Below are positions 1,012-17,161 of a stretch of DNA of 64,000 bases, one piece after another. Positions within the stretch are counted from its first letter, which is position 1. Each line of letters opens with the position of its first letter. The notes under the pieces are model-generated. The model did no database searches. It worked only from the letters and a program-made list of their open reading frames with translations, and had not been told where the DNA came from. The position numbers were made by a program, and so were the translations under genes. Origin of the DNA: Candidatus Margulisiibacteriota bacterium (GTDB lineage: Bacteria; Margulisbacteria; WOR-1; O2-12-FULL-45-9; XYB2-FULL-48-7); contig JALOPZ010000001.1 of NCBI GenBank assembly GCA_025453605.1, positions 365,042 to 429,041 on the forward strand, in the 5' to 3' direction.

Positions 1012-1120
1012 TGGTTTTCCCGGTCTGACGCTAACATTATAGACTCAAAATCGGGGCCGGACAAGGGGAGCCCGGTTGACATCGCTCCGGCCGGATGTAA
1101 GAATGACGGGGAGAAGAGCC

Positions 1121-1639
1121 ATGGCCTACGAACGTTTTCCGAGCTGGATCCCGCTTCTATCGGTCACGCAAGCGCTGACGATCTACGCGCTTGGCGCTCT
1201 GCTGGTCGGCGGCTTCGGCCCGACGGCCGCTTTTCTTTATCTCCTCTTCTGCGTCTGGTCCGAATACCGGGTCATGCAAATGTCGTGCCGCCACTGCTGC
1301 TATTTTGGGAAACTGTGCGGCACCGGCAAAGGGATCGTCGCCCCGCTCTTCACCAGGCGGGGGGACCCGTCGCTCTTTCTGGCCAAAGCGATCGGCTGGA
1401 AAGAGCTGATCCCCGACTTCCTGGTTTTCCTGATCCCGGTCCTGGCCGGGCTGATCAACCTTTTCTTTCATTTCCGGTTTTCGACCCTCGGCCTGATCGT
1501 GCTGATCGTCATTCTGGCCCTCCCCGGTTCGGGTTTCATGCGGACCCGCCTGATCTGCGCTAATTGTCGGCAACGGGAGCTTGGCTGCCCGGCCGAAAAA
1601 CTGTTCGGCAGTAAGAAGAAGGAGGGATGTTCATGTTGA
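1121..1639 (+). CDS. Cys-rich integral membrane protein (hypothetical)
   Basis: Start chosen at the ATG 9 nt after a GGGAGAAGAG RBS, downstream of a TTGACA -35 at 1076. Several hydrophobic helices. Motifs CRHCCYFGKLC and CANCRQRELGCP. Stop overlaps the next gene. Confidence 0.5.
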   Translation: MAYERFPSWIPLLSVTQALTIYALGALLVGGFGPTAAFLYLLFCVWSEYRVMQMSCRHCCYFGKLCGTGKGIVAPLFTRRGDPSLFLAKAIGWKELIPDFLVFLIPVLAGLINLFFHFRFSTLGLIVLIVILALPGSGFMRTRLICANCRQRELGCPAEKLFGSKKKEGCSC

Positions 1640-2028
1640 AGAAGATCGGTTTGGTTATCGGGATCATTTTGGTCGTGCTCATTGTTGTCGCCGGGGTGAT
1701 GTTTATCCGCTTCCAGTCAATGGCCAGCAACGTCAAGGCGCAGTACAGCGCGCTCAAGCCGGTCGACCTGCGCCAGGTCAAAGATGGGGTCTACGAGGGG
1801 AGCTTCGGCGATTTCCTGGTTGCCGTCAAGGTCAAGGTAACGGTGAAGTATCACCGGATCCGCGAAGTAAAGATCGTGGAACAGCGGTGCGGTGCCGGCT
1901 ACGAGGCGCTCGATACGACCAGCCGGATCGTCAAAGCGCAGCAGCCCAAGGTTGACGCCGTCACCGGCGCCTCCGGGAGCAGCATGGCGATTATGATCGC
2001 CGTTAAACGGGCGCTGACCGGTAAGTAA
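1627..2028 (+). CDS. FMN-binding domain protein (membrane-anchored, extracytoplasmic)
   Basis: N-terminal TM anchor and a C-terminal DAVTGASGSS flavinylation-type motif as in RnfG/NqrC FMN_bind domains. AAGGAGGG RBS. Confidence 0.7.
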   Translation: MFMLKKIGLVIGIILVVLIVVAGVMFIRFQSMASNVKAQYSALKPVDLRQVKDGVYEGSFGDFLVAVKVKVTVKYHRIREVKIVEQRCGAGYEALDTTSRIVKAQQPKVDAVTGASGSSMAIMIAVKRALTGK

Positions 2029-2157
2029 TGGGACAAACCCAGCCCTGATCACGGTCAGCGGAGCGGCAATGGCCATCGTTTTAGCCGGCTGATGAAAAGC
2101 CCGGTCGGTCCAGCGCGCTCTTACTAGCCGTCTCCGGTTGACCATAAGGAGGGCATT

Positions 2158-2994
2158 ATGAGTTTGATCAAAAAGAACCCGGTCCTGGCCTATTATATCC
2201 TGACCTTTCTCATCTCCTGGGGCGGTTTTCTCCTCATCGGCGGTTCTGGGCTACTCACCGGCACCAACTGGCAAACCGATCCCCGGTTCCAGTTCGCGGT
2301 TTTGGCAATGCTCGCGGGCCCGCCTTTCGCCGGCCTCCTTTTATCGTTTATCGTCTCTGGCAAAGCCGGCCTGCGTGAGTTGTTCGCTCGATCGATCCGT
2401 TGGCGAGTCAGCGGCCGCTGGTATGCGTTCGCGATCCTGACTGCTCCGCTCATCCAGCTGGCGGTGCTCATCGCGCTCTCAAATTTTTCTTCGCTATTTC
2501 TCCCCAGCATTTTCGTTATAAGCGACAAAGCGGCATTACTGGTGGCCGGAATCGCGGTCGGTCTGGTTGGGGGTTTGGTGGAAGAACTCGGTTGGACCGG
2601 CTTTGCCATCCCCCGGTTAAGATCGCGCTACAGCCTTCTCACTACCGGGATCATTGTCGGCATATTCTGGGGCATGTGGCACCTATTGCAGATGTGGTGG
2701 GTAAGCATGACTTCCGCCGAAGCGATCCCGCTGGCCATCTTCGTCCCTTTATACTTCATCTCTTCAATCCTGGCATTGACCGCATTCCGGGTGTTGATGG
2801 TGCGGGTATACGACCGGACAAATAGTTTGCTGGTGGCGATCCTCATGCACGCCAGCTACATCTTCAGCACCCTCTTTGTCCTGGCCCCCCCGATAAAAGG
2901 ACCGGCTTTTTTAATTTATAACTTTGTATTCACTTTTGTTTTGTGGGCCGTCGTTGCGGCAGTCGCTCTGGCCGACCAAAAACAAATCGCATGA
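2158..2994 (+). CDS. CPBP family intramembrane metalloprotease (CAAX protease/Abi-like)
   Basis: Multi-TM protein with EELGWTGFAIPRL (EExxxR) and FWGMWH motifs. RBS TAAGGAGGG. Confidence 0.8.
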   Translation: MSLIKKNPVLAYYILTFLISWGGFLLIGGSGLLTGTNWQTDPRFQFAVLAMLAGPPFAGLLLSFIVSGKAGLRELFARSIRWRVSGRWYAFAILTAPLIQLAVLIALSNFSSLFLPSIFVISDKAALLVAGIAVGLVGGLVEELGWTGFAIPRLRSRYSLLTTGIIVGIFWGMWHLLQMWWVSMTSAEAIPLAIFVPLYFISSILALTAFRVLMVRVYDRTNSLLVAILMHASYIFSTLFVLAPPIKGPAFLIYNFVFTFVLWAVVAAVALADQKQIA

Positions 2995-3833
2995 AGAGGA
3001 TAATGGCCTTTATCAAGAATAATCCGGTCATCGCTTATTTTACCCTGACCTTCGCCATCTCCTGGGGAGCGATCCTGGTCCTGATCGCGCTCAACGGGAT
3101 GCCGACAACCATAGCCGAAGCCAACGCGCAGCTCCCGATCGCGATCGTGGCGATGCTCGGCGGCCCTTTGGTCTCCGGTTTGTTGCTGATCGGCCTGGTT
3201 GACGGCCGGGCCGGTTACCGCGATCTCCTCTCCCGGCTCTTTAAATGGCGCGTTGGCCTCAAATGGTACGCCATCGCCCTGCTGACCGCGCCAGCGGTGA
3301 TGTTGCCGGTCCAATATTTCCTGACGTTGTTTTCCCCGGCCTACCAGTTTGGTTTCCTGGGGCCTAACGGTTCAGCCTTGCTGGTCATGGCGATAATGTC
3401 CGGCCTAGTGGTCGGCATCTGCGAGGAGATCGGCTGGTTCGGCTTTGCCATACCAAAGATGCGGCTCCGTTTCACTCCACTGAAAACCGGTTTGATCGTC
3501 GGCGTCCTCTGGGGAGCGTGGCATATCATGGCTAACGATATCTGGGCGATCCAAACTTATACCGGCGATCTGAACCCGATATTATACGCGCTCCTAGCCG
3601 GGTTCAGCTATTTGATCGGCTCGCTCCCTCCCTTCCGGGTCCTGATGGTCTGGGTCTATGAGCGGACCGGCAGTTTGCTTATAATGATAATAATGCATTT
3701 CAGTCTGACCGCCTGTTCTATATCCTTTGCTTCTCAGACGGCGTCAGGGTGGCAGGTCTTTATCTACGGTTTCTCTATCGCCGCCGCGATGTGGTTGCTG
3801 GCCGGAGTAGCGGTCTGGGCTAAAAAGCTTTAG
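2991..3833 (+). CDS. CPBP family intramembrane metalloprotease, tandem paralog
   Basis: CEEIGWFGFAIPKMR and WGAWH motifs. The N-terminus (IKNNPVIAYFTLTFAISWG) parallels the upstream paralog. ATGA start/stop overlap with the upstream gene. Confidence 0.8.
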   Translation: MKRIMAFIKNNPVIAYFTLTFAISWGAILVLIALNGMPTTIAEANAQLPIAIVAMLGGPLVSGLLLIGLVDGRAGYRDLLSRLFKWRVGLKWYAIALLTAPAVMLPVQYFLTLFSPAYQFGFLGPNGSALLVMAIMSGLVVGICEEIGWFGFAIPKMRLRFTPLKTGLIVGVLWGAWHIMANDIWAIQTYTGDLNPILYALLAGFSYLIGSLPPFRVLMVWVYERTGSLLIMIIMHFSLTACSISFASQTASGWQVFIYGFSIAAAMWLLAGVAVWAKKL

Positions 3834-4539
3834 TCCCCGTTATCCTGATGATCGTCCCGGTCAGGTCGATCTCGGGAGCGGTGGTATCAACTTCGCTCAA
3901 GACCTTACGAAAGCCGCCGAGCTTGCCGGAAAAGGCGCTGGCCCCCAATCCCATCCCCCACTCGTCGCTGATCTTCCAGGTCAGGTCGAGCCCCAGGCTG
4001 CTGCAGGTCCCCGATCCCCAGCGGTTGGTATTATAGGTGGTCTTGGTGTTGTCGTTCGTCTTATTGTAATTATATCCGCCCAGCATCACGCCGGCGCCGG
4101 GGGTCACGCTGAGGAGAAAGTTCTTATTCTGGTAGAGCCGCCATTCCAGTACCAGCTGGGCGCTGCCGTAGGCAAAGAAGAGGTCTTCGTAAACTTTGGT
4201 CGCGCTCTGCCGGTAAGTATAGTTGCCCGCCCCGCCAAAGCTGCCACCGATCAGCAGCTTGTCATTGATCGGCTGGCGGACGTCAAAAGAGCCGCCGTAG
4301 AGGTTGCGGACCGCCGGCAGGCCGGGGAACGCGGCGTTGAACTGGGCCGGATCGAACAACTGCACCCCGCCGCCAAAGCGGGTGTTCTTATGCAGCCCTT
4401 CGAATTTTTTCTGCTCCAGCTTTTTCTGGAACAGTTCCGCCTGCTCCGGGGTCAGCTTGTCGACATCCTCCAGCAAACCGGCTAGCGCCGGGATCACCAG
4501 GAAACTGACCGCCAGGAGCGTTAACAATCCGTTTTTCAT
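3820..4539 (-). CDS. Secreted protein, possible small outer-membrane beta-barrel
   Basis: Signal peptide MKNGLLTLLAVSFLVIPALA. Gly/Tyr/Asn/Thr-rich alternating C-terminal region ending in aromatic Phe. No recognisable enzymatic motif. Confidence 0.45.
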   Translation of the reverse strand: MKNGLLTLLAVSFLVIPALAGLLEDVDKLTPEQAELFQKKLEQKKFEGLHKNTRFGGGVQLFDPAQFNAAFPGLPAVRNLYGGSFDVRQPINDKLLIGGSFGGAGNYTYRQSATKVYEDLFFAYGSAQLVLEWRLYQNKNFLLSVTPGAGVMLGGYNYNKTNDNTKTTYNTNRWGSGTCSSLGLDLTWKISDEWGMGLGASAFSGKLGGFRKVLSEVDTTAPEIDLTGTIIRITGTKAF

Positions 4540-4580
4540 TTGAATCCTCCTATGACTTATGACCGCAGATAATTATACTA

Positions 4581-6005
4581 ATGTCATTAGAAACATTGCA
4601 AGTCAGCCAGTTGTTCCAAGTTGACTCCCCGCCCCCACGGTGGGAAAATGGCTCCGTCATGACCATTAAGCAATTCTTCGCCGGCCGTCCGGCATCTTAC
4701 CGGCTCTTCCAGCTGGTCAAGAAACAGCTAAAAGCTCTGGGGCCGGTCAAGATCGAGGTCAGAAAAACCCAGGTTTCTTTCGGGACCAAACGGAAGTTCG
4801 CCTGGGTCTGGCTGCCGCAGATGTGGATCAAAAAGCGGCTGGCGGACAGCATCACCTTAACTTTCGCTTTGCCGCGCCGGGTCAGGCACCGGCAGATCGC
4901 GGAAGCTGTCCAACCCCGTCCCCGCCATTGGACGCACCACGTTATCATAGAAAAGCCGTCCGATCTCGGCCGGGAAGTCAGGCAGTGGCTGAAAGAGGCG
5001 TTCGCGCAAAGTTTGTCCCTTTGCTGGATAATTGCCCTTATTCTCCTTTTCAGCGCCGGCCCAACTCTGGCCGAAGATGGGGTCGACTACGGCTACTGGT
5101 GCACCGACTGCGGGAGGCAGCACGGCCCCTCTGAATCGTGCCCCAAAGCCGGCGCACCCGCCCCTTCCACCCCGGACGAGCCATACGATTGGTCTCAACC
5201 TGCTTCTTCCCCAACCCCGACCAGGAGCGAACTGACCCCGGCCGAAAAACACCGGCAGGAAGCGGCGGAGTTTAACCGGCAAGGCGAAGAATTAATGCAA
5301 TTCGGCCGGCCTGATGAGGCGTACAACAAATTCTGGAGCGCCTGGTTCATGGAAATGGACGTGCCGCTCTATAAAAGCAACCTGGAACAAGCCAAAGCGG
5401 CCCTCAGCGTCCGCCAGGCGGAGCGCGATACTAAGATCAAAGAGGCATCTGTTCGGTTAAAGAAGCTGATAATTTCCGACCCGTCGCTCGTCAACGCCCG
5501 CGACCCAAAAACGGCGGACGAAACGGTCGTCGCCCTCCTCTTTTTGACTGATACCCGGCCGGGCGGACTGTTCAAGCTGAACCCGGAACTGCCTTTCATC
5601 AATCCCCTGCGCGAGCCGGAGCGGTACAAAGCTTGGGAAGAAGCAGAGCGAAAACGGCTGCAGCTCGAAGAGTTTAACCAGAAAGCCAGGGAGCTCGATG
5701 CCGCCCGCGACCGGATCATCAGGGAAGAGAACAGGACGATCAATCGCGACCAGAAGCGGCTCTTTAAGGTGGCGGTCCGGGAATTCCAGGCTGTCCGGGG
5801 GACCGACCCGCTGACCACCTTCGCTTCGCTGGAAGCTCGGCGGATAGCCGATCCGGCCCTGCAAAAGAAACTCAATCAGATTGCCAGCGCTTACTGGCAG
5901 AAGTCGGACGCGGCTAATTTGCAAGCGAGCGAGCAGGCCATGGAGCAGATGAAATCCGAGGTCAACAAGTTCTTTCAAAGACACCCGGAGTTAGCGCGGC
6001 CCTGA
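4581..6005 (+). CDS. DUF5655-like N-terminal domain fused in frame to a TM segment and a secreted coiled-coil/Cys-motif region
   Basis: Residues about 27-143 (MTIKQFFAGRPASYRLFQLVKK...WLKEAFA) match my recollection of the DUF5655 family. A hydrophobic signal-like segment LSLCWIIALILLFSAGPTLA begins at an internal TTG preceded by AAAGAGG. A CTDCGRQHGPSESC motif and long charged coiled-coil repeats follow. The true start may be the ATG at 4659. Confidence 0.55.
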   Translation: MSLETLQVSQLFQVDSPPPRWENGSVMTIKQFFAGRPASYRLFQLVKKQLKALGPVKIEVRKTQVSFGTKRKFAWVWLPQMWIKKRLADSITLTFALPRRVRHRQIAEAVQPRPRHWTHHVIIEKPSDLGREVRQWLKEAFAQSLSLCWIIALILLFSAGPTLAEDGVDYGYWCTDCGRQHGPSESCPKAGAPAPSTPDEPYDWSQPASSPTPTRSELTPAEKHRQEAAEFNRQGEELMQFGRPDEAYNKFWSAWFMEMDVPLYKSNLEQAKAALSVRQAERDTKIKEASVRLKKLIISDPSLVNARDPKTADETVVALLFLTDTRPGGLFKLNPELPFINPLREPERYKAWEEAERKRLQLEEFNQKARELDAARDRIIREENRTINRDQKRLFKVAVREFQAVRGTDPLTTFASLEARRIADPALQKKLNQIASAYWQKSDAANLQASEQAMEQMKSEVNKFFQRHPELARP

Positions 6006-6100
6006 CCGTTCCCCTGGCTACCTCACCCTTGTGTTGACTTCACCACTCCCTAATGGGACAATTTCCTCAGCCAGAGAATAATCATAAGGATGGTGGGGAA

Positions 6101-6436
6101 ATGAAACCGCTTATCACCCTGTTCCTCTCGCTGGTCGCCGCAACCGTGGTCTTCGCTCATGCGCCGTCCGACATTAAGGCAGCCTATGATCAAAAAAACC
6201 AGTTCCTGACGATCACCGTCGCCCATCAGGTCGGCGATCCGAAAAGCCATTACGTCAACGCGGTCGAGGTCAAACTTAACGGCCGGCAGGTACTGGCCCA
6301 GCGGTTCGATCATCAGTACGGCGACAAACAACAGCTGGTCATCGCCTTCTGGCCCAATTTAAAAAGCGGAACAGAGCTGGAGATCAAGGCCGACTGTAGC
6401 CGGTTCGGGGCGAAAAATGTTCGGATCAAGCTCTAA
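6101..6436 (+). CDS. Small secreted protein (hypothetical)
   Basis: RBS AAGGATGGTGGGG, then MKPLITLFLSLVAATVVFAHA signal peptide. About 110 aa with several His residues. Family not recognised. Confidence 0.5.
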   Translation: MKPLITLFLSLVAATVVFAHAPSDIKAAYDQKNQFLTITVAHQVGDPKSHYVNAVEVKLNGRQVLAQRFDHQYGDKQQLVIAFWPNLKSGTELEIKADCSRFGAKNVRIKL

Positions 6437-6956
6437 AGATCCTTCGCTCTGGTCGCTGCTCGCTGTCAATCTCCTGACCATCGCGCTGGCGGTCAAGTTC
6501 AACTGGAGCGTCCTGGAGCTGATGTGGATCTATTGGGGGCAGAGCGTGACGATCGGCGCGTTCAACGTTGTCCGTCTGCGGCCAAATATCGGGACCGCCA
6601 CCTTCTTTGCCCTGCATTTTGGTTTTTTCCACCTGATCTACGCGATCTTCCTGTCGGTCTTCACGCTGGCCGGCGACGAGCTCTTCCCCGGCGCGGCCCC
6701 GATCGATTGGCGGACCGTGCTGGGGGTGGTCGGCATGTTCGCCGCCAACCACGGTTTTTCGTTCCTCTACAACCGGGAGCGGGACGCGGCCAGGTTCGAT
6801 GAATCGCGGCTGATGTTCTATCCCTACGTCCGGATCTTCCCGATGCACCTGACGATCATCTTCGGCGCGCTCCTAAGCGGAACCTTCCCGCTTTTGCTCT
6901 TTATGGGGCTTAAGACAGCGGCCGACCTCGCCACGCATATTCTGGAACATCGCTAG
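6417..6956 (+). CDS. Integral membrane protein (DUF6498-like, hypothetical)
   Basis: About 5 predicted TM helices. Overlaps the upstream gene end. Family assignment is from memory only. Confidence 0.45.
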   Translation: MFGSSSKDPSLWSLLAVNLLTIALAVKFNWSVLELMWIYWGQSVTIGAFNVVRLRPNIGTATFFALHFGFFHLIYAIFLSVFTLAGDELFPGAAPIDWRTVLGVVGMFAANHGFSFLYNRERDAARFDESRLMFYPYVRIFPMHLTIIFGALLSGTFPLLLFMGLKTAADLATHILEHR

Positions 6957-6972
6957 AGGGGAGAATATTTCC

Positions 6973-7968
6973 GTGCCCAAAATACTGATGCTCTTTTATC
7001 TGTTCCTTGCCCTAACCGGAGGTGTATTAGCTATGGCGCAAGCTCCCAAAACGAGCGAGAGCGGCAAGATCAAGCTCTATGACCCAAGCCTGGGGACGGT
7101 CGTCGTTGTTGACCGGGTGGTCAAGAGCGATCAGGAGTGGGAGAAACTGCTGAACCCCGCACAATATGAAGTGACGACCAAAAAAGGGACCGAGGCCCCT
7201 TTTACCTGCTCGTTTGAGCAGATCAAAGAAGCCGGCCTTTACCAGTGTGTCCGCTGCGGCACGGCGCTGTTCAAGGCCGGCACCAAGTTTGAGTCGGGGA
7301 CCGGCTGGCCGAGCTTTTACGAGCCGGTTTCGCCCCTCAACGTCCTGGAGAAGCCGGACAATTCGCTCGGAATGAAGCGGACCGAGGTTGTTTGCGCCCG
7401 TTGCGACGCGCATCTCGGCCATGTTTTTGCTGATGGCCCCCGCCCGACCGGCAAACGCTATTGCATCAACGGGGTCGCGCTCCTGTTCGTCCCCTTTGGC
7501 GCGAAAGAAAAATACCCGGCGGCGACTTTTGGCGGCGGTTGTTTCTGGCACGTGGAAGAGGAATTCCGGAAAACCAAAGGAGTGGTCGATACGGCGGTCG
7601 GTTTTGCCGGCGGGACGGTGCCGGAGCCGTCGTACGAGCGCGTCTGCCGGGGCGACACCGGGCATGCCGAGGTTGTTCATCTCAAGTTCGATCCCAATGT
7701 GATCAGCTACGACCGGCTGCTCGACGTTTTCTGGTCGATCCACGACCCGACCCAGCTTGACCGGCAGGGGCCGGACGTCGGCAAGCAATATCGATCGGTC
7801 ATTTTCTATTATGATGACGCGCAGCAGCAAGCCGCGCAGAAGTCCAAGGAAAAACTGGCCAAATCCGGTAAGTATAAGGGGGCGATCGTGACCGAGATCG
7901 TCCCCGCCGCTAACTTCTTCCGGGCCGAAGAGTATCATCAAAAGTATTTGCAGAAAAGGGGAGAATAA
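6973..7968 (+). CDS. msrAB: Secreted bifunctional peptide methionine sulfoxide reductase MsrB-MsrA fusion
   Basis: Signal peptide. MsrB half with CVRCGTALF...RTEVVCARCDAHLGHVFADGP zinc/active-site motifs. MsrA half with the GGGCFWHVEEEF active site. Confidence 0.9.
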   Translation: MPKILMLFYLFLALTGGVLAMAQAPKTSESGKIKLYDPSLGTVVVVDRVVKSDQEWEKLLNPAQYEVTTKKGTEAPFTCSFEQIKEAGLYQCVRCGTALFKAGTKFESGTGWPSFYEPVSPLNVLEKPDNSLGMKRTEVVCARCDAHLGHVFADGPRPTGKRYCINGVALLFVPFGAKEKYPAATFGGGCFWHVEEEFRKTKGVVDTAVGFAGGTVPEPSYERVCRGDTGHAEVVHLKFDPNVISYDRLLDVFWSIHDPTQLDRQGPDVGKQYRSVIFYYDDAQQQAAQKSKEKLAKSGKYKGAIVTEIVPAANFFRAEEYHQKYLQKRGE

Positions 7969-7972
7969 GCTT

Positions 7973-8434
7973 ATGAAAACATTGATCATCTGTGCTTCCT
8001 ATCATCATCAAAACACGCTGAAGGTGGCCCGGGCGATGAACGAGGTGCTTGGGGGGACGATCGTGGCGCCGGCCGATGTCGACCTCTCCACCCTGGCCGG
8101 CTACGACCTGATCGGCTTTGGCTCCGGCGCTTACAACCAATTCTTCCATCCCAGCATGCTCAAGCTGGCCGCCAAACTGCCGGAGCTGAAGGGGAAAAAA
8201 GCCTTTATTTTTTCGACCAATACGTTCGGCCTGCGGCTTTTTAACGACAAGTTCAAGCCGCTGCTGGAGCAAAAGGGGTTTTCGGTTGTTGCCGACTTTT
8301 CCTGCCGCGGCTTTATCGACTTCAGCTTCACCCGGTTCTTCTTCGGCGGCATCAGCAAAGGCCACCCCAGCGAGAAAGAGCTGCAGGCCGCGCGCGAGTT
8401 TGCCAGGCAATTGACCTTGGCGGCCGGGGGCTAA
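7973..8434 (+). CDS. Flavodoxin-family protein
   Basis: MKTLIICASYHHQNTL...IGFGSGAYNQ... flavodoxin-like fold pattern, about 150 aa. Confidence 0.65.
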   Translation: MKTLIICASYHHQNTLKVARAMNEVLGGTIVAPADVDLSTLAGYDLIGFGSGAYNQFFHPSMLKLAAKLPELKGKKAFIFSTNTFGLRLFNDKFKPLLEQKGFSVVADFSCRGFIDFSFTRFFFGGISKGHPSEKELQAAREFARQLTLAAGG

Positions 8435-14376: not shown

Positions 14377-15685
14377 GGTCAGCTTGATCGCGCTCGGGGT
14401 ATTTCTCCTGCTGGCGGCCCTGCCGAATCCGCTCGCCCACGCGCCGCTCCTGATCTTTGCCGCCTTTGTCCCGCTCCTGGTCGGGAACCAAAAGTTGACG
14501 GGCTGGCCGCGCGTCCGGTTCAATTTTGCTTTCTGTTATCTCTCATTTATCGGGCTGACGTCCCCGCTCGACTCGGCAGCGCTCGGAGTGACAGGCAACG
14601 ATCTGCTGGTCCTCGCCGCCGCTTTCGGTCTGGCCGCGCTCCTCTACACTGTTATCTTCGCTGTCACCGCCGCACTGGCCGACCGGGGCCCTGGCTGGGC
14701 TTTTCCGCTTTACTGGAGCGCCGGCTGGCTGATAAGCCAATGGCTCTGCCAGAACCTCCCTTTCCTGATCCCCGGGCCGATCGAAACCGCCCTCGTCCCC
14801 TGGCCGGTCATCCTCCAGTCGGCCAACATCTTTGGTGCGACGGTGATCGGCGGCCTGATCTTTTTGACTAACGCCGTGCTGGCGTTCGCGCTAGCCGACC
14901 GCTCCCACGCCGCGTCGATCTGGCTGCTGGTCGTGACCCTTCTCCATCTCGGCAATCTCGGTTATGGCTGGTCGGCTTTGCGGTCAGACTTACCCGCCGA
15001 TGAAACGGTCACGGTCGCGCTGGTCCAGCCAAACATCAGCGCCGCCGCCTACCAGAAAGCGGCCCAGAACAAATTATTGGAATACGGTTTTTGGCGGGAA
15101 TTGGAGAAGTTGACCGCGCTCGCGTCGGACCAGGGGGCGGAATTGGTCATCTGGCCGGAACTGTCGGGAACTGCTCTTCCGGCAAAGCCAGCGCGCGCCA
15201 GGACAGCTGAACTGTTGTACGGCACGATCAGCGGCGGCGCCAACGCGGCGGTCATCGGGCAGCCGGACGGTTCGCTCAGTCAGCCTTACTGCAAAACTAT
15301 CCTCTTCCCCTTCGCCGAGTCGTTCACTTATCGGGCGGGACGAGCTTATCAACCATTGCCGTCCGCCACCCGGCTGGAACGGGTCGGCGCCCTGATCTGC
15401 CTCGAATCGCTTTACCCGGCGGTCGCCCAAAAACTGGTCCGCCACGGCGCCGCCTGCCTGGCGTTGCTGTCGACCGACGCCGCTTTCGGCAATTCGACCC
15501 TCCCCTACATCCACAAGAACGCGCTCGCTTTGCGGGCGATCGAGAATAACCGTTACGCGTTCCATGTCAGCAACACCGGCCCGTCGGCAGCTTTTGATGA
15601 GCGGGGGAGAGAGTTGGCGTTGATCCCGTACGGGGAACGGGGCTTCGTTCTGGTCGGTGTTCCTGCCGCCCGGCTTATTTTCTGA
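14330..15685 (+). CDS. lnt: Apolipoprotein N-acyltransferase (Lnt)
   Basis: Six N-terminal TM helices, then a CN-hydrolase domain with LVQPNI...K, LVIWPEL (Glu), YCKTILFPFAE, the ALICLES catalytic Cys and the LSTDAAFGNSTLPYIHKNALALRAIEN tail. The start may be the downstream TTG at 14369. Confidence 0.8.
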   Translation: MTASTRGSRRSRSLSKVSLIALGVFLLLAALPNPLAHAPLLIFAAFVPLLVGNQKLTGWPRVRFNFAFCYLSFIGLTSPLDSAALGVTGNDLLVLAAAFGLAALLYTVIFAVTAALADRGPGWAFPLYWSAGWLISQWLCQNLPFLIPGPIETALVPWPVILQSANIFGATVIGGLIFLTNAVLAFALADRSHAASIWLLVVTLLHLGNLGYGWSALRSDLPADETVTVALVQPNISAAAYQKAAQNKLLEYGFWRELEKLTALASDQGAELVIWPELSGTALPAKPARARTAELLYGTISGGANAAVIGQPDGSLSQPYCKTILFPFAESFTYRAGRAYQPLPSATRLERVGALICLESLYPAVAQKLVRHGAACLALLSTDAAFGNSTLPYIHKNALALRAIENNRYAFHVSNTGPSAAFDERGRELALIPYGERGFVLVGVPAARLIF

Positions 15686-16337
15686 CCCGGCGGTAGACAG
15701 CGGCGTAGAGCGTCAGCAGGGTAAAGTTATATAAGAAATCCTCCAGCGGGATCGTTCCGACTCTCAGGTTCAGGATGGCATTGGGACCATAGGTCACGAC
15801 CGGCAGGGCGGTCAGGACCGCGTTAAAGATAAAGAAGAGGACCATCCCGATCCCGATCCAGGCCCAGTACAGGCGCGAGGAGACCAGCGGCTGATGATAG
15901 ACCGGCACGCTCAGGCACCACGCTCCGGTCGCCAGCAAAACAAGCACAGTGTAACCTTTATCGGACGCGAGAAGCGCCCCGGTCAGGCAAGCCAGCGCCG
16001 CCCAGTAGAAGAGCCGCCGGTTGACGGCGATCTCGCCGTCCCTCAGGTAAGTGAGCATCTGCTCGTAAAGAAACAGACAGCTGTACGGCACGGTCACAAA
16101 AAAGAGCCATTCCTCGATCGGCAAACCGAGCAATTTGGCGCCGGTCACATACCGGGGATTAAAGGCCCAGTGACCGAGCCCGGTGACCAGCACGTCCCAA
16201 ATGATGAACAGCAGGCCGACCGTCAGGATAGAGATCAGTAACGGCCGCCAGCGCCGGTAAAAGCGGAACCCGGGGAGAAAAGTCAGCAGCAGGGGCCCGG
16301 CAATGATCGCCAGGTTAATGGCCAGATAGGTTCTCAT
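15675..16337 (-). CDS. Lycopene cyclase domain protein (fused CrtYc/CrtYd-type)
   Basis: Two repeats of the xPxEE motif (LPIEEWLFF and IPLEDFLYNF) in a 7-TM protein. The ATG overlaps the crtB stop (ATGA). Confidence 0.75.
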   Translation of the reverse strand: MRTYLAINLAIIAGPLLLTFLPGFRFYRRWRPLLISILTVGLLFIIWDVLVTGLGHWAFNPRYVTGAKLLGLPIEEWLFFVTVPYSCLFLYEQMLTYLRDGEIAVNRRLFYWAALACLTGALLASDKGYTVLVLLATGAWCLSVPVYHQPLVSSRLYWAWIGIGMVLFFIFNAVLTALPVVTYGPNAILNLRVGTIPLEDFLYNFTLLTLYAAVYRRVRK

Positions 16338-17161
16338 CGGGCGGTCACCAGATTGTAAAGAACCCGGGCGACGATCCGGGCGCGCGACGGCTTGACGACC
16401 CGACGGTATACCTGCAGCGGCTCCCGCTCGATCTCCGCCGCGGTCCACCGGTACATGTCGGCCGCCGTCTTGACCGGGATCAGGTAGCGGCGTGGGATAA
16501 AATGGTACCCTTCTTCCGCCCTCGCCTGCCATTGTCGGTAACGGGTCAACTGCAACTCGATGAACCGCCGGAACTGCTCGGCCTTACTCTCCGCTTCGGC
16601 CGGCCGGAGCGAGTTAAGGCCGAACTGCGCCAGCTCAGCACCGGGTAAATAGGTCCGCCCGAGTTTCTGGTCTTCATTTATGTCACGGATAAAATTGACA
16701 TACTGCATCGCTTTGCCCAGATACCGGGCCGGTTCCAGCGCGGCTTCGGGGAGGTTAAGGATCCGGGCCATCATCAGACCGACCACTTCGGCCGAGCCGT
16801 AAATATATTCCTCCGTTTCGCCGATCGTCCGATACTCTTGCTTGTGCGTATCCAGCTCCATCGAGTAAAGGAACGACTCGACCCACTGGGGATCGAACCG
16901 TTTTCGTCTGAGTAAGTCGATAAAGCTGTCGATCACCAGATCGCCGGAGGGTCCAGCCGCCAGCGCCCGGGCATAGCGCTCGGCAAAAGCATTGAACCCG
17001 TCCTTGTCCTGCGGGAGGGAATCAACATAGTTGTCGGCCTGACGGACGAACGCATAAAGGATCGAGACGTCGGCCCGGACCGGCGCGGGGAAAAAAAGAG
17101 CGCTGTAAAAGTAGGTCCGGCTCCCCGCCCGGAAGATCGCCCGCTGCCGGCTAACGTCCAT
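16334..17161 (-). CDS. crtB: Phytoene synthase
   Basis: Squalene/phytoene synthase signatures: YAFVRQADNYVDS, YIYGSAEVVGLMMARIL and MQYVNFIRDINEDQKLGRTYLP. Confidence 0.9.
   Translation of the reverse strand: MDVSRQRAIFRAGSRTYFYSALFFPAPVRADVSILYAFVRQADNYVDSLPQDKDGFNAFAERYARALAAGPSGDLVIDSFIDLLRRKRFDPQWVESFLYSMELDTHKQEYRTIGETEEYIYGSAEVVGLMMARILNLPEAALEPARYLGKAMQYVNFIRDINEDQKLGRTYLPGAELAQFGLNSLRPAEAESKAEQFRRFIELQLTRYRQWQARAEEGYHFIPRRYLIPVKTAADMYRWTAAEIEREPLQVYRRVVKPSRARIVARVLYNLVTAR

What the first reader, a model, noticed from the sequence alone, without database searches (positions are those of the whole stretch)
4581..6005. DUF5655 domain fused in frame to a signal-peptide/coiled-coil exported region with an internal start signal
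The first about 140 residues form a complete DUF5655-type cytosolic domain. With no intervening stop, the frame continues into LSLCWIIALILLFSAGPTLA. This signal-peptide-like segment begins at a TTG that has its own AAAGAGG Shine-Dalgarno 12 nt upstream.

A CTDCGRQHGPSESC motif and about 300 aa of charged coiled coil follow.

Three explanations fit:
- a real two-topology fusion;
- a lost stop codon that merged two genes;
- dual initiation producing both a fusion protein and a secreted protein.
Basis: seen in the sequence. Interest (0 to 1): 0.5.

Follow-up and report, generated by a model that had tools for sequence, protein, structure and literature searches.

The report
Two neighbouring genes fused into one
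In this Margulisbacteria genome, a small cytoplasmic gene of unknown function (DUF5655) and the gene after it, which encodes an exported protein, have merged into one reading frame; this is a real but one-off local mutation, not a conserved design.

Summary
The ORF 4581-6005 (474 aa) exists as described. A complete DUF5655 domain (aa 30-143) runs without a stop into LSLCWIIALILLFSAGPTLA, a 3-Cys motif and a helical region. The identical ORF occurs on five contigs from at least two metagenome samples and several assemblies, with identical DNA, so it is not a one-off assembly error.

The fusion is a singleton:
- About 50 relatives of the C-terminal part are stand-alone proteins that start with a classical signal peptide (M-x-K-x-K, hydrophobic core, A-x-A|D/E-E). 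None carries DUF5655.
- About 100 DUF5655 relatives are stand-alone, 90-187 aa (most 120-146), and those aligned end 3-5 residues after WLKEAY, at the junction.
- A syntenic Margulisbacteria contig has a different, separate upstream gene (DUF5661).

Removing any single base in 5004-5028 restores two overlapping genes. One is a 123-aa DUF5655 ending at TAA 5029. The other is a 339-aa protein from GTG 4985 with a proper positively charged signal peptide. These relics occur by chance in about 3% of synonymous recodings.

Best reading: a recent boundary mutation, probably a 1-nt frameshift. It turned a signal peptide into an internal signal-anchor.

The "internal RBS" is weak: it encodes conserved K-E-A and lies 14 nt from the TTG. 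Interest is low to moderate.

The parts
4581..6005 (+). Fusion ORF, 474 aa. NCBI annotates 448 aa starting at ATG 4659 (protein MCU0640797.1).
4552..4579 (+). Promoter-like site ATGACT-16-TATACT. A GATAAT hexamer also ends 7 nt before ATG 4581, the same geometry as the leaderless-looking genes of this window.
4621..4649 (+). Second promoter-like site, TTGACT-17-GAAAAT (TG-extended), ending 9 nt before ATG 4659, the start annotated by NCBI.
   Evidence: Two DUF5655 relatives start at the equivalent MTIK.
4668..5009 (+). Complete DUF5655 domain (aa 30-143). All 26 invariant columns of the family alignment are, by construction, also present in the window sequence. An alpha/beta fold is predicted.
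4985..4987 (+). GTG in frame +2 relative to the ORF. Candidate original start of the exported protein. It gives MAERGVRAK... once one base is removed downstream. In the present sequence it opens only a 49-codon junk ORF.
4992..4998 (+). These are the codons K-E-A of the conserved WLKEA motif, 14 nt upstream of TTG 5013.
5004..5028 (+). Interval in which deleting any one base restores two separate genes. It contains short homopolymers: AAA 5008-5010, TTT 5012-5014, CCC 5017-5019, TTT 5020-5022.
5013..5072 (+). Hydrophobic segment LSLCWIIALILLFSAGPTLA. It is the h- and c-regions of the former signal peptide and now lies internally. TTG 5013 is its first codon. By alignment with relatives, signal-peptidase cleavage would fall after TLA (5072|5073).
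5029..5031 (+). TAA in frame +1. Candidate original stop of the DUF5655 gene, which would give a 123-aa protein, a typical length for the family.
5100..5141 (+). Conserved Cys motif CTDCGRQHGPSESC (C-x2-C-x9-C). Predicted as a small beta-hairpin.
5142..5228 (+). Pro/Ser/Thr/Ala-rich low-confidence linker.
5238..5468 (+). Helical bundle with one TPR-like hairpin (aa 220-296).
5580..5639 (+). Family signature NPELPFINPLREPERYKAWE, the most conserved block of the exported family.
5616..5981 (+). Two long helices with a short one between them (aa 346-467). The protein ends with the conserved motif FFQRHPEL.

Best explanation
The ORF is a real fusion of two formerly independent neighbouring genes, specific to this clonal population. 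The upstream gene encoded a soluble protein of about 123 aa made of a single DUF5655 domain. The downstream gene encoded a Sec-exported protein of about 340 aa from an unnamed family. That family has a signal peptide, a YGYWCxxCGRQHGPGESCP motif, a Pro/Thr linker, a TPR-like hairpin, an NPLREPERYKAWE motif and long helices.

A small mutation at their boundary removed the separation. The most likely event (about 50%) is a one-base insertion inside a short overlap of the two genes. In that scenario:
- the DUF5655 frame now bypasses its own stop (TAA 5029) and reads into the hydrophobic core of the signal peptide;
- the exported protein's own start (GTG 4985) and basic n-region (AERGVRAK) are left out of frame.

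Inferred consequence, not shown: translation from the DUF5655 start yields an N-in/C-out membrane protein. The old signal-peptide core would act as a signal-anchor, with positive residues R131, R134 and K138 on the cytoplasmic side. Signal peptidase I may still cut after TLA164 and release the periplasmic domain. If so, the mutation would be tolerated rather than adaptive.

Sub-claim probabilities:
- real sequence, 0.9;
- derived from two separate genes, 0.9;
- origin by frameshift, 0.5;
- membrane insertion with cleavage, 0.5.
For: Real sequence:
- The identical product is on five contigs from at least two JGI samples, a Logan assembly and two NCBI records, and the four fetched contigs are identical in DNA to the window.

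Two separate genes in all relatives:
- The 13 word-indexed relatives of the C-terminal part lack DUF5655 (P0011 is a fragment that runs into NadA).
- Of 46 members scanned with Pfam, only this one has DUF5655.
- Five further metagenome loci are stand-alone and start MAKLK, MPKAK, MKKT, MSKGK or MNKNR.
- No DUF5655 is found in any locus that carries a stand-alone relative.
- 106 DUF5655 relatives are 90-187 aa; the 16 aligned end 3-5 aa or more after WLKEAY, at the junction, and the eight longest inspected have no hydrophobic tail.

Synteny:
- Window 1076-3833 is collinear with a Margulisbacteria contig. There a separate DUF5661 gene, a 2-nt spacer and an ATG precede the relative.

Frameshift relics:
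- Deleting one base anywhere in 5004-5028 gives a 123-aa DUF5655 and a 339-aa protein starting MAERGVRAK + LCWIIALILLFSAGPTLA|EDG.
- The three relics together occur at 0.35% of codon positions in the window's genes.
- They occur in 3.1% of synonymous recodings of the same peptide.

Both halves look intact:
- The invariant and near-invariant family residues reported by the alignments include the window sequence, so it has not departed at any of them.
- GC and GC3 are the same in both halves and match the window.

Anchor:
- Hydropathy is 2.1 over 19 residues.
- AlphaFold2 draws one continuous helix, aa 131-158, from the last DUF5655 helix into the hydrophobic segment.
Against: - No closer relative than about 50-57% identity exists in any collection searched, so the pre-fusion state of this lineage is not observed.
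- The restored arrangement needs a 47-nt overlap. That is longer than the overlaps of up to about 20 nt seen among adjacent ORFs in the window (for the DUF6498 start at 6417).
- Given the conserved Q-W codons, the frame +2 GTG is expected in 92% of recodings. The real weight rests on the charge (10%) and the frame +1 stop (32%).
- No strong SD precedes GTG 4985.
- The block 3834-5012 is specific to this lineage, and its right edge coincides with the junction. This also fits a single recombination that joined the genes in frame.
- Export and cleavage of the fusion are inferred only.
Confidence: 0.6

Rival explanations
1. The fusion arose in frame by a short deletion or an illegitimate recombination. 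The event removed the DUF5655 stop, the spacer, the start codon and the basic n-region of the exported gene. It may have been the same event that brought the block 3834-5012 (the 239-aa gene on the minus strand plus DUF5655) next to the exported gene.
For: - The lineage-specific block ends at the junction. The syntenic relative has DUF5661 in its place.
- The n-region is absent from frame 0.
- Only an in-frame join, or an internal start, would keep the exported protein expressed, so selection would filter for such joins (inference).
Against: - Both breakpoints would have to fall within a few codons of the natural ends of both genes.
- A usable start, a basic n-region and a stop would all have to sit in the right alternative frames by chance. 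That happens in 3.1% of recodings and at 0.35% of positions genome-wide.
Confidence: 0.3
2. Dual initiation: besides the fusion protein, ribosomes start at TTG 5013 and make the exported protein separately (MSLCWIIALILLFSAGPTLA...), so that both original functions are kept.
For: - The TTG is in frame at the first codon of the hydrophobic core.
- A relative appears to use a TTG start that overlaps the upstream stop.
- A purine-rich AAAGAGG lies upstream.
Against: - The spacing is 14 nt, against 5-9 nt for strong SD sites in the window.
- The motif is imposed by the conserved K-E-A codons and occurs 25 times in the window.
- The product would have no basic residue before the hydrophobic core, unlike 14 of 14 relatives with a recognisable signal peptide.
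- No internal promoter-like site lies before 5013.
Confidence: 0.15
3. Sequencing or assembly artefact: a homopolymer indel or a chimeric join created the fusion in silico.
For: - The junction lies among 3-nt homopolymers.
- A single base restores two normal genes.
Against: - The same sequence is recovered on five contigs from two samples and at least three assembly pipelines, including a k-mer-graph Logan assembly of raw reads. The four fetched contigs show 0 differences from the window.
- The five other overlapping same-strand ORF pairs tested in the window showed no split domains.
Confidence: 0.05
4. A selected, functional two-topology architecture: DUF5655 is meant to be membrane-tethered and coupled to the periplasmic domain.
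For: - Both domains are intact.
- The topology obeys the positive-inside rule.
Against: - It is a singleton among about 50 relatives of the exported family and about 100 DUF5655 relatives.
- The two families are not even neighbours in any other locus.
- The population is clonal, so persistence is not demonstrated.
Confidence: 0.05

Closest known systems
Fusion ORFs created by a frameshift or stop loss between adjacent or overlapping bacterial genes
   Same: - Two complete, otherwise independent genes are joined at their natural boundary.
- The event is a singleton in one lineage.
- Relics of the old start and stop remain in other frames.
   Different: The downstream partner is an exported protein, so the fusion turns an N-terminal signal peptide into an internal hydrophobic segment and changes the predicted topology of the product.
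Type II (N-in/C-out) signal-anchor membrane proteins, and Sec signal peptides cut by signal peptidase I
   Same: - A hydrophobic core of about 13 residues is followed by a small-x-small motif (T-L-A).
- Basic residues lie on the N-terminal side.
   Different: - A folded domain of about 118-144 aa precedes the segment.
- Targeting and cleavage are untested.
- The segment descends from a cleavable signal peptide, not from a dedicated anchor.
DUF5655 (Pfam PF18899) stand-alone proteins
   Same: - Full-length domain match.
- Up to 64% identity to proteins of 120-146 aa.
   Different: - The relatives aligned end at the junction, and the longest relatives inspected have hydrophilic tails.
- The function of the family is unknown. 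There is no significant PDB match by sequence or by fold.
Unnamed exported family (P0002-P0014 and about 24 strong representatives)
   Same: The window protein from aa 165 on aligns end to end at 42-57% identity with its closest members (49-57% with the five closest) and keeps the conserved residues.
   Different: - It is the only member without its own basic n-region and the only one with an N-terminal domain.
- The family has no Pfam or NCBIfam model.
Genes with in-frame internal starts that give two isoforms (for example IF2, ClpB, CheA; cited from general knowledge)
   Same: An in-frame alternative start codon lies inside a longer ORF.
   Different: There is no conserved or well-spaced ribosome-binding site and no conservation of the arrangement.

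Membership tests
DUF5655 (PF18899) | Match to the Pfam model above the gathering score, over the whole model | tested here: met
   59.3 bits against a cut-off of 24. Model positions 2-108 of 109 match aa 30-143.
DUF5655 (PF18899) | The close relatives of this sequence are small stand-alone soluble proteins | tested here: not met
   106 relatives are 90-187 aa; the 16 aligned end at or just after the junction, and the eight longest inspected have no hydrophobic tail. The window protein continues for 330 more residues.
Sec signal peptide (signal peptidase I type) | N-terminal position with a basic n-region | tested here: not met
   - In the sequence as it stands, the hydrophobic core starts at aa 145 of the ORF.
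- From TTG 5013 the n-region would be Met-Ser only.
- The feature is met only after removing one base, which gives MAERGVRAK.
Sec signal peptide (signal peptidase I type) | Hydrophobic core of 10-15 residues followed by a small-x-small cleavage motif | tested here: met
   - LCWIIALILLF is followed by SAGPTLA|ED.
- It aligns with the A-x-A|D/E-E sites of the relatives.
- Hydropathy is 2.1.
- No dedicated signal-peptide predictor was available.
Lipoprotein signal peptide (signal peptidase II type) | Lipobox L-[AS]-[GA]-C at the end of the hydrophobic core | tested here: not met
   The only Cys nearby (LSLC, aa 145-148) is at the start of the core and has Leu at position -1.
Unnamed exported family (relatives P0002-P0014) | Shared motifs: YGYWCxxCGRQHGP.E.CP, NPLREPERYKAWE, and C-terminal FxQRHPE | tested here: met
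   All are present. E-values reach 5e-92 to relatives, with 93-99% coverage for the full-length close members.
TPR proteins | Match to Pfam TPR models above the cut-off | tested here: not met
   - No TPR hit for the window protein.
- Only local similarity of 47-60 residues, by fold at E > 0.27 or by profile.
- 6 of 46 proteins retrieved with the family profile do hit TPR_1 or TPR_2.
Coiled-coil protein | Heptad periodicity or a coiled-coil predictor score | not tested
   Only AlphaFold2 secondary structure is available: helices of 61 and 43 residues.
Dual-initiation gene | Internal start codon with a functional ribosome-binding site at working distance, conserved in relatives | tested here: not met
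   14-nt spacing against 5-9 nt in this window. The motif is explained by conserved codons. No relative shares the arrangement.

The most novel reading that the evidence does not exclude
The fusion is expressed and works as a new bitopic protein. DUF5655 would be held at the inner face of the membrane by the former signal peptide. The periplasmic domain would either stay attached or be released by signal peptidase, possibly supplemented by weak initiation at TTG 5013. This would be a natural, freshly born example of a cytoplasmic domain gaining membrane tethering through capture of a neighbour's signal peptide.
Probability: 0.25. Interest if true: 0.4.

Novelty: new member of a known kind. Interest (0 to 1): 0.25.

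Why it matters
The main value is for annotation. The product should not be read as a conserved 'DUF5655 + exported domain' architecture, and no function should be transferred from one half to the other.

It is also a clean, datable-looking example of how a one-base change at a gene boundary can turn a cleavable signal peptide into an internal signal-anchor. That could serve as a natural test case for the targeting of internal signal sequences.

As a by-product, the work defines an exported protein family that has no Pfam or NCBIfam model. It occurs in MAGs labelled Margulisbacteria, delta proteobacterium, Nitrospirota and Bacteroidales.

Tried and rejected
- **Independent assemblies and closer relatives.** A degenerate DNA pattern on YGYWCxxCGRQHGP in JGI metagenomes gave five loci, all stand-alone and about 50% identical over most of the protein (one short fragment 66%). 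A scan of GTDB species genomes gave five loci, none fused. Its automatic pattern P[LW]INPLREP could not match the window's own PFINPLREP.
- **Exact look-up of the 448-aa NCBI product.** Not on record. The 474-aa version was found.
- **Frame +1 as the source of the n-region (KRRSRK).** Rejected: no start codon follows the TGA at 4990.
- **Function by structure.** Foldseek against the PDB found nothing significant for either half. The best results were TPR-like local hits at E > 0.27 for the exported part, and E > 0.1 for DUF5655. Profile searches of PDB sequences were likewise negative.
- **Conserved gene neighbours of the exported family.** None. The upstream gene is variously a beta-lactamase-like gene, DUF5661, an MFS transporter, a PgaB-like gene or cytochrome c552.
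- **Signs of an error-prone assembly.** The five other overlapping same-strand ORF pairs tested in the window have complete, unrelated Pfam domains rather than split ones.
- **Literature.** No paper mentions the sample or assembly identifiers. One unrelated paper mentions DUF5655.
- **Compositional discontinuity at the junction.** None: GC is 0.58 and 0.59, and GC3 is 0.74 and 0.71.
Full report
**1. Observation**

The ORF at 4581-6005 on the plus strand is open for 474 codons. Pfam places a complete DUF5655 domain at aa 30-143, covering model positions 2-108 of 109 at 59.3 bits against a cut-off of 24.

The same frame continues into LSLCWIIALILLFSAGPTLA (aa 145-164, nt 5013-5072). This is the most hydrophobic 19-residue window of the protein, with a Kyte-Doolittle mean of 2.1. 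It is followed by:
- EDGVDYGYW and the motif CTDCGRQHGPSESC (aa 174-187);
- a Pro/Ser/Thr linker;
- helical regions.

The TTG at 5013 is codon 145. AAAGAGG is at 4992-4998, which is 14 nt before the TTG, not 12.

The source is a Candidatus Margulisbacteria MAG. NCBI protein MCU0640797.1 is annotated from ATG 4659 as 448 aa, a 'DUF5655 domain-containing protein'.

**2. Is the sequence real?**

The exact 474-aa product is on record on five contigs:
- JGI 3300037461 (790,553 bp);
- JGI 3300037408 (16,382 bp);
- Logan SRR12684589 (9,130 bp);
- NCBI GCA_025490975.1 (15,149 bp);
- the window's own MAG contig (783,540 bp).

The four fetched loci are identical to the window at every base over 3.9-4.4 kb. 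Two samples and several assemblers, one of them a k-mer graph built straight from the reads, make a random assembly or sequencing error unlikely. The identity also shows that this is one clonal population, so nothing can be said about long-term persistence. The five other overlapping same-strand ORF pairs tested in the window carry complete, unrelated domains, so there is no sign of a frameshift-prone assembly.

**3. Both halves are independent proteins everywhere else**

*C-terminal part (aa 145-474).* A search of 5.8 billion proteins found 14 relatives. Only the window's own protein carries PF18899. The close relatives (258-403 aa, about 40-57% identical in alignment) begin with a textbook signal peptide. 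Examples are MSKQK-LLFLLIMIVILFCCGAARA|DE, MSKLK-FFLLIASTILLFSYIATQA|DE and MAKLG-SLVLIFAAILLFGGGAVRA|ED. This is followed directly by (G)QDYGYWCxxCGRQHGPGESCP.

An exhaustive profile search of 1.84 billion cluster representatives found 197 hits, 24 of them below 1e-30. The weaker multi-stretch hits are TPR repeat proteins. Of 46 members scanned with Pfam, one (the window protein) has DUF5655. A degenerate DNA pattern found five further metagenome loci. All are stand-alone and start MAKLK, MPKAK, MKKT, MSKGK or MNKNR.

*DUF5655 part.* It has 106 relatives of 90-187 aa, up to 64% identical. The 16 aligned end three to five residues or more after the conserved WL(K/R)EA(Y/F), which is exactly at the junction. 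The eight longest, where inspected, have basic hydrophilic tails, never a hydrophobic one.

*Adjacency.* A DUF5655 profile finds nothing in any of the 15 loci that carry a stand-alone relative of the exported protein.

**4. Synteny**

Window genes 1076-3833 encode a 187-aa protein, an FMN_bind protein and two Rce1-like proteins. They are collinear with contig JAQUOB010000112.1 of another Margulisbacteria MAG.
- On that contig, the next genes are a separate DUF5661 gene, a 2-nt spacer and the exported relative, which starts with ATG.
- In the window, the corresponding interval 3834-5012 holds a 239-aa gene on the minus strand and DUF5655.

In a third Margulisbacteria genome, a beta-lactamase-like gene lies upstream, and the relative most probably starts at a TTG that overlaps its stop (TTGA). 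Gene callers had picked an internal ATG and truncated the signal peptide.

The upstream neighbour is therefore variable. The DUF5655 neighbour is specific to this lineage.

**5. How the fusion arose**

In frame 0 the basic n-region, which 14 of 14 relatives with a recognisable signal peptide have, is missing. The DUF5655 C-terminus abuts the hydrophobic core. The other two frames hold what is missing:
- Frame +2 has GTG at 4985, followed by AERGVRAKF.
- Frame +1 has TAA at 5029-5031.

Deleting any single base in 5004-5028 yields two ordinary genes. That stretch contains AAA, TTT, CCC and TTT runs. The two restored genes are:
- a 123-aa DUF5655 protein (from ATG 4659), which is the family's typical length;
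- a 339-aa protein beginning M-AERGVRAK-(F/L)..LCWIIALILLFSAGPTLA|EDG, a canonical signal peptide.

I tested how often such relics arise by chance.
- Across 17,052 codon positions of the window's genes, the three features co-occur at 0.35% of positions. The features are: an upstream frame +2 start 4-14 codons away with no intervening stop, net charge of at least +2, and a frame +1 stop within 7 codons.
- The fairer null keeps the amino-acid sequence and resamples synonymous codons with the window's codon usage. It gives 3.1%.
- Under that null the individual rates are: start 92%, because conserved Q-W nearly forces a GTG; start plus charge 10%; stop 32%.

This favours the frameshift model by roughly 30-fold. 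It is not proof.

Points against the frameshift model:
- The restored genes would overlap by 47 nt. Adjacent ORFs elsewhere in the window overlap by up to about 20 nt.
- GTG 4985 has no good SD.
- The right edge of the lineage-specific block coincides with the junction. This also suits a single in-frame recombination or deletion.

I put the frameshift origin at about 0.5 and an in-frame deletion or recombination at about 0.3.

**6. The internal start signal**

Genes in the window with a strong AGGAGG-type site have aligned spacings of 5-9 nt. The AAAGAGG here is 14 nt away. It is simply AAA GAG GCG, the codons for K-E-A of the conserved WLKEA motif. Two DUF5655 genes from elsewhere have AAGGAAG and AAAGAAG at the same place. 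The heptamer occurs 25 times in the window, against 9.7 expected from shuffles, including once more inside this ORF.

No promoter-like site precedes 5013. The promoter-like sites lie at 4552-4579 and 4621-4649, upstream of the two candidate DUF5655 starts. Initiation at TTG 5013 cannot be excluded, because a relative probably uses a TTG. It would, however, give a signal peptide with no basic residue.

**7. What the product probably does (inferred)**

AlphaFold2 models the DUF5655 part as a confident alpha/beta domain (pLDDT 81, pTM 0.70). The first 26 residues are disordered. The last helix (aa 131-158) runs straight into the hydrophobic segment. With R131, R134 and K138 on the N-terminal side, the segment should insert N-in/C-out as a signal-anchor. 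The T-L-A|E-D site aligns with the relatives' cleavage sites, so signal peptidase I could still release the periplasmic part.

The exported part (pLDDT 75) is predicted as:
- a beta-hairpin at the Cys motif;
- a flexible linker;
- a helical bundle with one TPR-like hairpin;
- a disordered stretch;
- the NPELPFINPLREPERYKAWE signature;
- two long helices.

Neither half has a significant relative in the PDB by fold or by sequence. No gene neighbour is conserved across the exported family. Its molecular function therefore stays open. A periplasmic binding or scaffold role is only a guess based on the TPR-like element.

Both halves have not departed at any of the invariant family positions reported by the alignments and share the genome's composition. 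This fits a recent, tolerated event.

**8. Verdict**

The interpretation 'two genes merged' is right. The merging is most likely a one-base frameshift that bypasses a still-present stop, not the loss of a stop codon. The 'internal RBS' is incidental. The architecture is a singleton, not a family trait.

It is a new member of a well-known kind of event, boundary-mutation gene fusion, with a modestly interesting twist: a signal peptide converted to an internal anchor. Interest is 0.25.

Noticed in passing
window, e.g. ATG at 44807(-), 42764(-), 11483(-), 26692(-), 18679(+), 61804(+), 61763(-), 57531(+), 4581(+): Fourteen ATG-initiated ORFs of 100 aa or more (at least one a likely non-coding shadow ORF) have a TATAAT-like hexamer ending 6-9 nt before the ATG, which suggests widespread leaderless mRNAs in this Margulisbacteria genome. 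Only about eight genes show a strong AGGAGG-type SD at 5-9 nt.
   Followed up: partly
P0011 (JGI, 2,251-bp contig; not in the window): A 212-aa protein starts with a 78%-identical copy of the conserved ...LLFLTD...NPELPFINPLREPERYKAWEEEERKRLQLE block of this family. It then continues in frame into quinolinate synthase (NadA, PF02445). This is another odd junction involving the same family. It could be a chimera or a remnant.
   Followed up: no
window 5073-6005; loci L001, L004, L005, L008, L010, L014-L018: The exported part belongs to a family with no Pfam or NCBIfam model.
- Signature motifs are YGYWCxxCGRQHGPGESCP, DPSVVDLRD, NPExPxINPLREPERYKAWE and a C-terminal KFxQRHPE.
- There are about 24 strong representatives among 1.84 billion proteins.
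- It occurs in MAGs labelled Margulisbacteria, delta proteobacterium, Nitrospirota and Bacteroidales.
- Distant members (P0010, P0012) replace the 3-Cys motif with two DnaJ-like CxxCxGxG motifs.
- L005 has two tandem paralogues.
   Followed up: partly
L001 4207-5238 (same gene in L002, L003, L006, L016): Gene callers start the relative P0002 at an internal ATG (MLICVSGASLA...). A TTG at 4207 that overlaps the stop of the upstream beta-lactamase-like gene (TTGA) restores a normal signal peptide, MKKTILLLIFAAMLICVSGASLA|EEG.
   Followed up: yes
window 3820-4539 (-): A 239-aa protein with an N-terminal signal peptide has no Pfam hit and no counterpart in the syntenic Margulisbacteria contig. Together with DUF5655 it forms the lineage-specific block 3834-5012. 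It has a strong AGGAGG 6 nt before its ATG.
   Followed up: partly
window 6053-8434: Downstream genes are all on the same strand.
- A small exported protein, probably starting at ATG 6101 (MKPLITLFLSLVAATVVFAHA).
- A DUF6498 membrane protein, which overlaps the previous gene by 20 nt.
- An exported protein of 331 aa; JGI's precomputed Pfam hits for the same gene are SelR + PMSR (MsrB-MsrA).
- A 153-aa ORF, not examined further.
- A promoter-like TTGACT-17-GACAAT at 6034-6062 suggests that these genes are transcribed separately from the fusion ORF.
   Followed up: no
window 15675-17161 (-): Adjacent genes for a lycopene cyclase domain protein and a squalene/phytoene synthase. This indicates carotenoid or related isoprenoid biosynthesis in this non-photosynthetic sister lineage of the Cyanobacteria.
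   Followed up: no
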